Origin: Escherichia coli
GTDB lineage: Bacteria; Pseudomonadota; Gammaproteobacteria; Enterobacterales; Enterobacteriaceae
Length of the DNA stretch: 64,000 nucleotides
Assembly: GCF_003334785.1 (NCBI RefSeq)
Contig: NZ_QOWV01000010.1
Reading direction: 5' to 3' (one strand)
Position 1 is the first letter of the stretch. Each line of letters starts with the position of its first letter. Below, piece after piece: positions 63,021-63,780 of this stretch. The notes beneath the pieces were generated by a model. It was given only the letters and a program-made list of their open reading frames with translations. It was not told where the DNA came from and searched no databases. The translations under genes were made by a program, and so were the position numbers.

Positions 63021-63188
63021 GTGAAGAAACTCACCGATAAGCAAAAGTCCCGTCTCTGGGAGCTTCAGCGTAATCGTAATTTTCAGGCCAGTCGCCGTCT
63101 TGAAGGCGTCGAGATGCCTTTAGTCACTCTTACTGCCGCAGAGGCTTTAGCGCGCCTTGAAGAGCTGAGGAGTCACTATGAGCGATAA
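63021..63188 (+). CDS. yhfG: YhfG, small protein (Fic-associated antitoxin-like, FicA-type)
   Basis: Not in ORF track; GTG start; translation [55 protein letters not shown]; contains SRRLEG matching the (S/T)xxxE(G/N) motif; overlaps fic start by 11 nt. Confidence 0.8.
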
Positions 63189-63780
63189 ATTCGGCGAAGG
63201 GCGCGATCCGTATCTTTATCCAGGCCTTGATATCATGCGTAACCGGCTGAACATCCGCCAGCAGCAGCGGCTGGAACAGGCCGCTTACGAAATGACGGCG
63301 CTGCGTGCTGCGACCATTGAGCTTGGTCCGCTGGTGCGCGGTTTACCGCATTTGCGAACTATCCATCGCCAGCTGTATCAGGATATTTTCGACTGGGCAG
63401 GGCAACTGCGTGAAGTTGATATTTATCAGGGTGATACGCCGTTCTGCCACTTTGCTTATATCGAAAAAGAGGGCAATGCCCTGATGCAGGATCTGGAGGA
63501 AGAAGGTTATCTGGTTGGCCTGGAGAAAGCGAAGTTCGTCGAGCGGCTGGCGCATTACTATTGTGAAATCAACGTGCTGCATCCCTTCCGGGTGGGAAGT
63601 GGTCTGGCACAGCGGATCTTCTTCGAGCAACTGGCGATTCATGCCGGATATCAACTGAGCTGGCAGGGTATCGAAAAAGAGGCCTGGAATCAGGCAAATC
63701 AGAGTGGGGCAATGGGGGATCTCACCGCACTGCAGATGATATTTAGCAAAGTGGTAAGCGAAGCCGGGGAATCTGAGTAA
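63178..63780 (+). CDS. fic: Fic-domain protein (filamentation induced by cAMP)
   Basis: 200-aa ORF; Fic-like motif [12 protein letters not shown]. Confidence 0.93.

What the first reader, a model, noticed from the sequence alone, without database searches (positions are those of the whole stretch)
63021..63780. Overlapping yhfG-fic pair resembles a FicA/FicT toxin-antitoxin module, but the Fic motif is non-canonical
A 55-codon GTG-initiated ORF (yhfG), missed by the ORF track, overlaps the fic start by 11 nt, which implies translational coupling. YhfG carries SRRLEG, matching the inhibitory (S/T)xxxE(G/N) motif of class I Fic antitoxins. Fic shows [12 protein letters not shown] where the canonical AMP-transferase motif is HPFx(D/E)GNGRxxR, with substitutions at the acidic, Asn and Arg positions. 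This suggests altered or attenuated adenylylation chemistry in this allele.
Basis: partly seen in the sequence, partly recalled or inferred. Interest (0 to 1): 0.5.

Follow-up and report, generated by a model that had tools for sequence, protein, structure and literature searches.

The report
Known E. coli yhfG–fic (FicA/FicT) module

Summary
A GTG-initiated 55-codon yhfG (63021-63188) overlaps the 200-codon fic (63178-63780) by 11 nt. YhfG carries S24RRLEG29 and Fic carries H135[11 protein letters not shown]146. The window's Fic protein is the E. coli K-12 protein (WP_001280641.1), and near-identical constructs of it are in the PDB (5JFZ, 5JFF). Stanger, Harms, Dehio and Schirmer (PLoS One 2016, PMC5033356) already described this pair as EcFicA/EcFicT. 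They reported the canonical inhibition motif, the E28–R146 salt bridge, the degenerate FIC motif and no detectable adenylylation even with the antitoxin E28G mutant. The one wrong point is "in this allele". The locus is in 5426 of 5426 complete E. coli genomes. All ten motif-region haplotypes I read encode [12 protein letters not shown] or HPFRAGSGLAQR; the five whose exact matches I counted cover 98.1% of genomes. All 120 closest protein clusters (79% identity or more) read HPFR[LIVF]G[SN]G[LMI]AQR, and the canonical motif returns only at 48% identity or less. Gene order, the 11-nt overlap and the promoter −10 element are conserved in three other genera, and fic has dN/dS of 0.02-0.08. It is therefore a conserved, vertically inherited module that is probably not an AMP-transferase, and its substrate is still unknown. 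Already known; low interest.

The parts
62926..62947 (+). GC-rich hairpin just after the ppiA stop codon; upstream boundary of the yhfG-fic unit
   Evidence: RNAfold gives a 9-bp stem at -20 kcal/mol. The simple terminator scan did not list it because the T-run is weak. A terminator function is inferred.
62982..62987 (+). TATACT, the -10 element reported for the RpoS-dependent fic promoter; it lies 39 nt upstream of the yhfG start, so it drives yhfG and fic together
   Evidence: The hexamer is given in Table 2 of PMC5650638, citing Utsumi 1993. It is the only TATACT in 62901-63200. It sits in a block TTGC[CT]GCTTATACTTGTGG that is conserved in E. coli, Salmonella, Klebsiella, Leclercia and L011. 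The sigma-70 consensus scan found no promoter here, as expected for a promoter without a -35 element.
63009..63014 (+). Shine-Dalgarno GGGAGG for yhfG
   Evidence: Read from the sequence; conserved in all orthologous loci.
63021..63188 (+). yhfG (ecficA): 55-aa FicA-type antitoxin-like protein with a GTG start
   Evidence: ORF list; RefSeq annotation of an identical locus; Pfam PF10832 at 5.4e-24; NCBIfam NF007573 at 126.9 bits against a cut-off of 77.
63090..63107 (+). Codons S24-G29, SRRLEG: the inhibitory [S/T]xxxE[G/N] motif at the end of the alpha-inh helix
   Evidence: Only match in the protein. It is SCRLEG in Salmonella, SRRLEG in Klebsiella and SRLLEG in Leclercia. In the crystal, S24 and E28 contact R146 of Fic (PMC5033356).
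63167..63172 (+). Shine-Dalgarno GAGGAG for fic, inside the yhfG coding sequence
   Evidence: Read from the sequence.
63178..63188 (+). 11-nt overlap ATGAGCGATAA between the yhfG stop and the fic start
   Evidence: Identical in all 5 E. coli sequences read over the overlap (the window and 4 other strains) and in Salmonella, Klebsiella and Leclercia. Translational coupling is inferred.
63178..63780 (+). fic (ecficT): 200-aa class I FIC-domain protein
   Evidence: Pfam PF02661 at 1.5e-13; NCBIfam equivalog NF007672 at 430 bits against a cut-off of 181; PDB 5JFZ and 5JFF at E = 1e-133 to 1e-134; same protein accession as K-12 MG1655.
63340..63342 (+). Codon G55, the site of the classical fic-1 (G55R) mutation; wild type here
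   Evidence: Translation; the G55R mutation is described in PMC5033356.
63580..63615 (+). Degenerate FIC signature H135[11 protein letters not shown]146 (canonical form HxFx[D/E]GNGRxxR)
   Evidence: alignment to canonical Fic-1 (8WT0). DNA variation among E. coli strains within these codons is synonymous apart from V139A.
63812..64000 (+). Start of pabA, 31 nt downstream of fic (runs off the window); a conserved neighbour
   Evidence: Annotation; the same adjacency is seen in Salmonella, Klebsiella, Leclercia and L011.

Best explanation
The region is the chromosomal EcFicA/EcFicT (yhfG-fic) module of E. coli, the founding member of the Fic family. Shown here or in print: the two genes lie downstream of one stationary-phase (RpoS-dependent) promoter located upstream of yhfG, and they overlap by 11 nt. 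YhfG forms a tight 1:1 complex with Fic and places S24 and E28 of its SRRLEG motif onto R146 (R2) of the FIC loop. The FIC loop has lost three ATP/Mg-contacting residues: D/E is now V139, N is S141 and R1 is L143. It keeps the catalytic His135, both glycines of the anion nest and R2. No adenylylation has been detected. Shown here: this degenerate state is fixed across E. coli and its enterobacterial relatives, it is inherited vertically at one syntenic site, and it is under strong purifying selection. Inferred: the module is no longer a gyrase/topoisomerase IV-AMPylating toxin. It is a domesticated FIC enzyme that still needs gating by YhfG. It most likely uses His135 to transfer a phosphate-containing group from a donor other than ATP onto a target that has not been identified. 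My estimates are about 0.99 for the identity, about 0.8 for 'not an AMP-transferase' and about 0.45 for 'still catalytic with a different substrate'.
For: Identity: ORFs and annotation; Pfam and NCBIfam equivalogs; PDB 5JFZ/5JFF. Published structure and biochemistry: 1:1 complex with Tm 63 C, lowered by 10 C with E28G; S24/E28-R146 contacts; no auto- or target-adenylylation even with the inhibition motif mutated; the R1-to-Leu change argues against ATP binding, while His is conserved; a 2026 paper still calls the mechanism elusive. Not allele-specific: the locus is in 5426/5426 genomes. Five 60-nt haplotypes cover 5323 of 5426 genomes, and ten sampled haplotypes all read HPFR[VA]GSGLAQR. All 120 clusters at 79% identity or more read HPFR[LIVF]G[SN]G[LMI]AQR with His invariant. 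Among 50%-identity representatives, the homologues at 48% identity or less are mostly canonical; 112 of the 131 representatives with a recognisable motif are canonical. Selection and vertical descent: dN/dS of fic is 0.02-0.05 within E. coli and 0.03-0.08 against Salmonella, Klebsiella and Leclercia. The order tsgA-ppiA-yhfG-fic-pabA-argD, the overlap and the SxxLEG motif are the same in those genera. Promoter: TATACT at 62982-62987 in a conserved block.
Against: No activity of any kind has been demonstrated for EcFicT, so 'still catalytic' rests only on conservation of His135, the pocket residues and the inhibitory contact. A 2024 review states that ectopic EcFicT expression strongly inhibits E. 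coli growth, citing Harms 2015. If that is correct, the protein keeps toxin-like potency. I could not read the primary paper. My E. coli survey sampled haplotypes and did not enumerate all 5426 sequences; about 1.9% of genomes carry motif-region haplotypes I did not read. Co-transcription and translational coupling were not tested here.
Confidence: 0.8

Rival explanations
1. Attenuated but genuine FicT toxin. EcFicT would still AMPylate GyrB/ParE, only weakly, and yhfG-fic would work as a classical type II toxin-antitoxin pair.
For: The class I architecture, the inhibitory motif and R2 are intact. The fold is very close to the gyrase AMPylases VbhT and Fic-1. A review reports growth inhibition on ectopic expression. 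The fic-1 allele causes filamentation, a phenotype that also follows topoisomerase inhibition.
Against: No auto- or target-adenylylation was seen even with the inhibition motif mutated. R1, which binds the ATP beta-phosphate, is Leu, and the Mg-binding acidic residue is Val. These changes are fixed and conserved across genera and are not sporadic. Inheritance is vertical and syntenic, unlike mobile TA modules. The VbhT equivalog model scores 138 bits against a cut-off of 800.
Confidence: 0.08
2. Pseudoenzyme. EcFicT would have lost catalysis altogether and would act as a binding or regulatory protein, with YhfG kept as an obligate folding or stability partner.
For: No activity has been found in about 40 years. 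Three substrate-contacting residues are lost. The complex is very stable and its interface is mainly hydrophobic. Strong purifying selection fits any conserved function.
Against: The catalytic His is invariant in all 120 clusters, as are both glycines and R2. The published analysis finds a conserved new hydrophobic groove next to the signature loop. The inhibitory S/E contacts to R2 are kept across genera, which is easier to explain if an active site still needs blocking.
Confidence: 0.25
3. Decaying relic. The non-canonical motif would mark a pseudogenised toxin drifting toward loss.
For: The motif is degenerate. Delta-fic strains are viable. One strain carries an IS21-family insertion in fic.
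Against: The locus is present in 5426/5426 genomes, with at least 80% of the locus query covered in 5424. dN/dS is 0.02-0.08. DNA changes within the motif are nearly all synonymous. The length is a constant 200 aa across genera.
Confidence: 0.01

Closest known systems
EcFicA/EcFicT of E. coli K-12 (YhfG/Fic; PDB 5JFF, 5JFZ; Stanger et al. 2016, PMC5033356)
   Same: It is this locus. The Fic protein accession is the same as in K-12 MG1655. The PDB chains differ only at residues 2 and 27 plus the engineered mutations.
   Different: Nothing of substance. The window has R27 where the crystallised construct has H27, and R27H is a natural polymorphism.
VbhA/VbhT of Bartonella schoenbuchensis (PDB 3SHG, 3ZC7, 3ZCB)
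   Same: A class I Fic module: a small upstream antitoxin with [S/T]xxxE[G/N], a Glu-R2 salt bridge and the same FIC fold (published rmsd 1.36 A). The sequence match is E = 6e-33.
   Different: VbhT has the canonical motif and AMPylates GyrB and ParE. It is plasmid-borne and carries a BID domain. VbhA has three helices, while YhfG has two helices and a loop. EcFicT fails the VbhT equivalog cut-off.
AntF/Fic-1 of Pseudomonas bijieensis 2P24 (PDB 8WT0)
   Same: The closest solved relative from another species (E = 2e-49, aligned over residues 1-196). It has the same class I arrangement and the same S24/E28-R146 contacts.
   Different: Fic-1 has HPFREGNGRAQR and AMPylates GyrB Y111, and the complex acts as a deAMPylase. 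No such activity is known for EcFicT.
Doc/Phd and AnkX (FIC-fold enzymes with altered motifs)
   Same: They are precedents for a changed signature motif redirecting the FIC fold to a different chemistry: a kinase in Doc and phosphocholination in AnkX.
   Different: They have different motif variants and distant sequences, and their activities are known. EcFicT's activity is not known.

Membership tests
FIC domain (Pfam PF02661) | Match to the Fic/DOC profile and the FIC fold | tested here: met
   PF02661 at E = 1.5e-13 over residues 58-152. Solved structures of the same protein exist (5JFZ/5JFF).
Enterobacterial Fic equivalog (NCBIfam NF007672) and YhfG (NF007573, Pfam PF10832) | Score above the curated cut-off | tested here: met
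   Fic scores 430.3 bits against 181 and YhfG scores 126.9 bits against 77. PF10832 matches at 5.4e-24.
Class I Fic (FicTA) module | A separate small protein, encoded immediately upstream in the same operon, carries the alpha-inh motif [S/T]xxxE[G/N] | tested here: met
   yhfG overlaps fic by 11 nt and carries S24RRLEG29. This is conserved in three other genera.
Class I Fic (FicTA) module | [quoted passage not shown] | not testable with these tools
   Published crystal structures and SEC-MALLS show a 1:1 complex with S24/E28-R146 contacts. Both partner residues are present in the window sequence.
AMP-transferring FicT toxins (VbhT, YeFicT, PaFicT, Fic-1) | Canonical signature HxFx[D/E]GNGRxxR | tested here: not met
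   The motif is [12 protein letters not shown], with V for D/E, S for N and L for R1. No second motif exists in the protein, and the register is confirmed against 8WT0.
AMP-transferring FicT toxins | Adenylylation of GyrB/ParE | not testable with these tools
   The literature reports that none was detected, even with the inhibition motif mutated. The VbhT equivalog model is far below its cut-off, 138 against 800 bits.
Type II toxin-antitoxin systems | The toxin arrests growth and the cognate antitoxin neutralises it | not testable with these tools
   The secondary sources disagree. One review reports growth inhibition, while the structure paper calls the protein only 'toxin-like' and reports that delta-fic is viable.
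Type II toxin-antitoxin systems | Patchy, horizontally mobile distribution (typical of the class, not strictly defining) | tested here: not met
   One copy is present in 5426/5426 E. coli genomes at one site. The synteny is the same in Salmonella, Klebsiella and Leclercia.

The most novel reading that the evidence does not exclude
The EcFicT-like clade would be a neofunctionalised FIC enzyme. It would keep the catalytic His, the anion nest and the YhfG gate, but transfer a group from a non-ATP, phosphate-containing donor bound in the clade-specific hydrophobic groove onto an unidentified target. It might act in stationary phase and might be linked to the always-adjacent pabA and folate metabolism. 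The idea was already raised by Stanger et al. 2016, and the folate link is hinted at by the older literature summarised in PMC5650638, so even if true the credit would not belong to this finding.
Probability: 0.3. Interest if true: 0.6.

Novelty: already known. Interest (0 to 1): 0.12.

Why it matters
E. coli Fic gave the whole Fic/AMPylase family its name, yet its own biochemical activity is still unknown, and a 2026 paper still calls the mechanism elusive. That remains an open question. This finding does not make it any more testable. The overlap, the inhibitory motif, the degenerate signature, the structure and the clade-wide conservation are all in print.

Tried and rejected
(1) Megablast with a 60-nt motif query reached only 4135 of 5426 genomes because it needs a 28-nt exact word. 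I replaced it with blastn in distant mode and with exact-match counts for each haplotype.

(2) The sigma-70 promoter scan found nothing in 62800-63900. The known fic promoter is RpoS-dependent and has no -35 element, so I located it from its published -10 hexamer instead.

(3) The terminator scan returned only weak hits inside coding sequence and missed the ppiA hairpin. I treated those intragenic hits as chance.

(4) I tried twice to read Harms et al. 2015 (Cell Reports). It is not held, so the question of EcFicT toxicity rests on secondary statements that disagree.

(5) I considered whether a canonical motif could hide in the 95%-identity tier, since three point mutations would restore it. 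Sampling of the major and minor haplotypes found none, but about 1.9% of genomes were not read.

(6) I considered pseudogene decay and rejected it on dN/dS and full-length conservation.

(7) Several low-identity 'homologues' in the representative library (P0125, P0127-P0129) are frameshifted or error-ridden reads, and I ignored them.

Full report
**What is in the sequence.** The window holds ppiA (62344-62916), a 104-nt spacer, a GTG-initiated 55-codon ORF (63021-63188) and a 200-codon ORF (63178-63780). pabA follows, starting at 63812. RefSeq annotates an identical locus with the same coordinates, as yhfG and fic. The two ORFs overlap by 11 nt, ATGAGCGATAA, and each is preceded by a good Shine-Dalgarno sequence. 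YhfG has exactly one [S/T]xxxE[G/N] match, S24RRLEG29. Fic has exactly one HxFxxGxG match, H135[11 protein letters not shown]146, and no GNG anywhere.

**Identity.** Fic matches Pfam PF02661 (1.5e-13) and the NCBIfam equivalog NF007672 (430 bits against a cut-off of 181). YhfG matches PF10832 (5.4e-24) and NF007573. The Fic protein has the same accession as in K-12 MG1655, WP_001280641.1. The PDB holds this protein as 5JFZ and 5JFF (E about 1e-134). The next solved relative is Fic-1 of Pseudomonas bijieensis (8WT0), a proven GyrB AMPylase. It aligns over residues 1-196 and places HPFReGnGrAQR against [12 protein letters not shown]. The motif is therefore correctly assigned and truly differs at the acidic, Asn and first-Arg positions.

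**What is already published.** Stanger, Harms, Dehio and Schirmer (PLoS One 2016, PMC5033356) renamed yhfG and fic as ecficA and ecficT and solved two complexes.
- They report a stable 1:1 complex with a Tm of 63 C, which drops by 10 C with EcFicA E28G.
- The SRRLEG segment conforms to the inhibition motif. S24 and E28 contact R146 (R2), as in VbhTA.
- They could not demonstrate auto- or target-adenylylation, even with the inhibition motif mutated.
- They attribute this mainly to Leu in place of R1 and a hydrophobic residue in place of the Mg-binding D/E, and they note that the catalytic His is conserved.
- They find that close homologues are all enterobacterial, syntenic and vertically inherited, and that the canonical motif is the ancestral state.
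- A 2026 paper still calls the mechanism behind the fic-1 phenotype elusive.

**Testing 'in this allele'.** The 897-nt locus is present in 5426 of 5426 complete E. coli genomes, and 5424 of them cover at least 80% of it. A 60-nt query centred on the motif finds one place in every genome at 91.7% identity or more.

Exact-match counts for the five haplotypes I first sampled are:

| Haplotype | Genomes |
|---|---|
| K-12 / window | 2829 |
| Nissle 1917 | 1218 |
| 602354 | 1271 |
| N96 | 4 |
| 2017-02-2CC | 1 |
| Total | 5323 (98.1%) |

All of these, and four further minor haplotypes, translate to [12 protein letters not shown] or HPFRAGSGLAQR. The DNA differences within the motif codons are otherwise synonymous. 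No sampled E. coli has a canonical motif. About 1.9% of genomes carry haplotypes I did not read.

**Beyond E. coli.** The 120 closest protein clusters, at 79% identity or more, come from Escherichia, Salmonella, Citrobacter, Klebsiella and Leclercia. All read HPFR[LIVF]G[SN]G[LMI]AQR apart from three single-cluster variants, and His, both Gly and R2 are invariant. In the 50%-identity representative library, 112 of the 131 homologues with a recognisable motif are canonical HxFx[DE]GNGRxxR. These are the ones at 48% identity or less. The ones above about 66% identity lack the canonical motif. This reproduces the published picture independently.

**Context and selection.** Salmonella, Klebsiella and Leclercia loci show the same order, tsgA-ppiA-yhfG-fic-pabA-argD. 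They also have the same 55-aa and 200-aa lengths and the same 11-nt overlap. YhfG keeps S..LEG in all three. By the Nei-Gojobori method, dN/dS for fic is 0.02-0.05 among E. coli alleles and 0.03-0.08 against the three genera. For yhfG it is 0.07-0.29, based on few sites. The degenerate protein is therefore under strong purifying selection and is not decaying. The −10 hexamer reported for the RpoS-dependent fic promoter is TATACT (PMC5650638, citing Utsumi 1993). It lies at 62982-62987, 39 nt upstream of the yhfG GTG, inside a block conserved across the genera. The known 'fic promoter' therefore sits upstream of both genes. A strong hairpin at 62926-62947 follows ppiA.

**Mechanism.**
- Shown: this is a class I Fic architecture in which YhfG clamps Fic and blocks R2. 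The ATP- and Mg-contacting residues are lost, while the catalytic His and the anion nest are kept.
- Inferred: the module is a domesticated derivative of a FicTA toxin-antitoxin pair that no longer AMPylates gyrase or topoisomerase IV. It probably uses another phosphate-containing donor on an unknown target, still under YhfG control.
- Rivals: a weak but real AMPylating toxin, disfavoured by the negative assays and the fixed loss of R1; a pseudoenzyme, which is plausible but explains the conserved His and inhibitory contact less well; and a decaying relic, rejected by dN/dS.
- Unresolved: a 2024 review says ectopic EcFicT expression strongly inhibits growth, citing Harms 2015. The structure paper calls the protein only 'toxin-like'. 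I could not obtain the primary paper.

**Verdict.** The exception is that the motif is a species-wide and clade-wide state and not an allelic peculiarity, and that 'attenuated adenylylation' probably understates the change. The finding is already known, so interest is low. The remaining open question, what EcFicT actually does, is real, but this finding does not advance it.

Noticed in passing
L007 3262-6280 (E. coli MS 21-1, NZ_CP146670.1): fic is split after about codon 80 by an IS21-like ISEc10 element (istA/istB), while yhfG stays intact. This is one of only two genomes of 5426 in which no single place covers at least 80% of the locus query.
   Followed up: partly
P0001 (252 aa) and P0005 (233 aa): These are single-ORF YhfG-Fic fusions called in Logan assemblies. 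P0001 reads ...[12 protein letters not shown]..., which is what loss of one base in AGGAGTC just before the fic ATG would give. It stands for 15 member sequences. I did not resolve whether these are real variants or sequencing errors.
   Followed up: partly
L011 1011-1613 (Logan contig ERR4228981_3458; protein P0122): At the syntenic site (ppiA, gene, pabA) lies a 200-aa in-frame fusion of the YhfG N-terminus to Fic from about residue 35. The YhfG part has SSRLDI in place of SRRLEG. The locus is 157 nt shorter than in E. coli. Its FIC motif, HPFFVGSGRAQR, keeps R1 but has lost the D/E and N positions. It comes from a single 2.7-kb contig of unknown organism and could be a natural class I to class II-like conversion or an artefact.
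   Followed up: partly
window 63592-63594 (codon V139); L004, L005, L012, L014, L015: A minority of E. coli lineages carry V139A (HPFRAGSGLAQR). Other genera have L, I or F at this position, so it tolerates small to medium hydrophobic residues but was never acidic in the sample.
   Followed up: yes
window 63256-63258 (codon 27): The window and the K-12 RefSeq protein have R27, whereas the crystallised constructs 5JFZ and 5JFF have H27 (and G2). R27H occurs naturally in strain 602354, the representative of the 60-nt motif-region haplotype found in 1271 genomes.
   Followed up: partly
window 62966-62992: The block TTGC[CT]GCTTATACTTGTGG around the sigma-S −10 hexamer is identical apart from that one position in E. 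coli, Salmonella, Klebsiella, Leclercia and L011, while the rest of the ppiA-yhfG spacer diverges. This suggests more than a −10 element is conserved there.
   Followed up: partly
E. coli genome search results: One record labelled as a plasmid carries the yhfG-fic locus. This could be a mislabelled replicon or a chromosomal segment on a plasmid.
   Followed up: no
literature (PMC10886550 versus PMC5033356): A 2024 review states that EcFicT expression strongly inhibits E. coli growth. The 2016 structure paper, from the group it cites, reports no detectable adenylylation and calls the protein 'toxin-like'. The primary 2015 paper was not available to check.
   Followed up: partly
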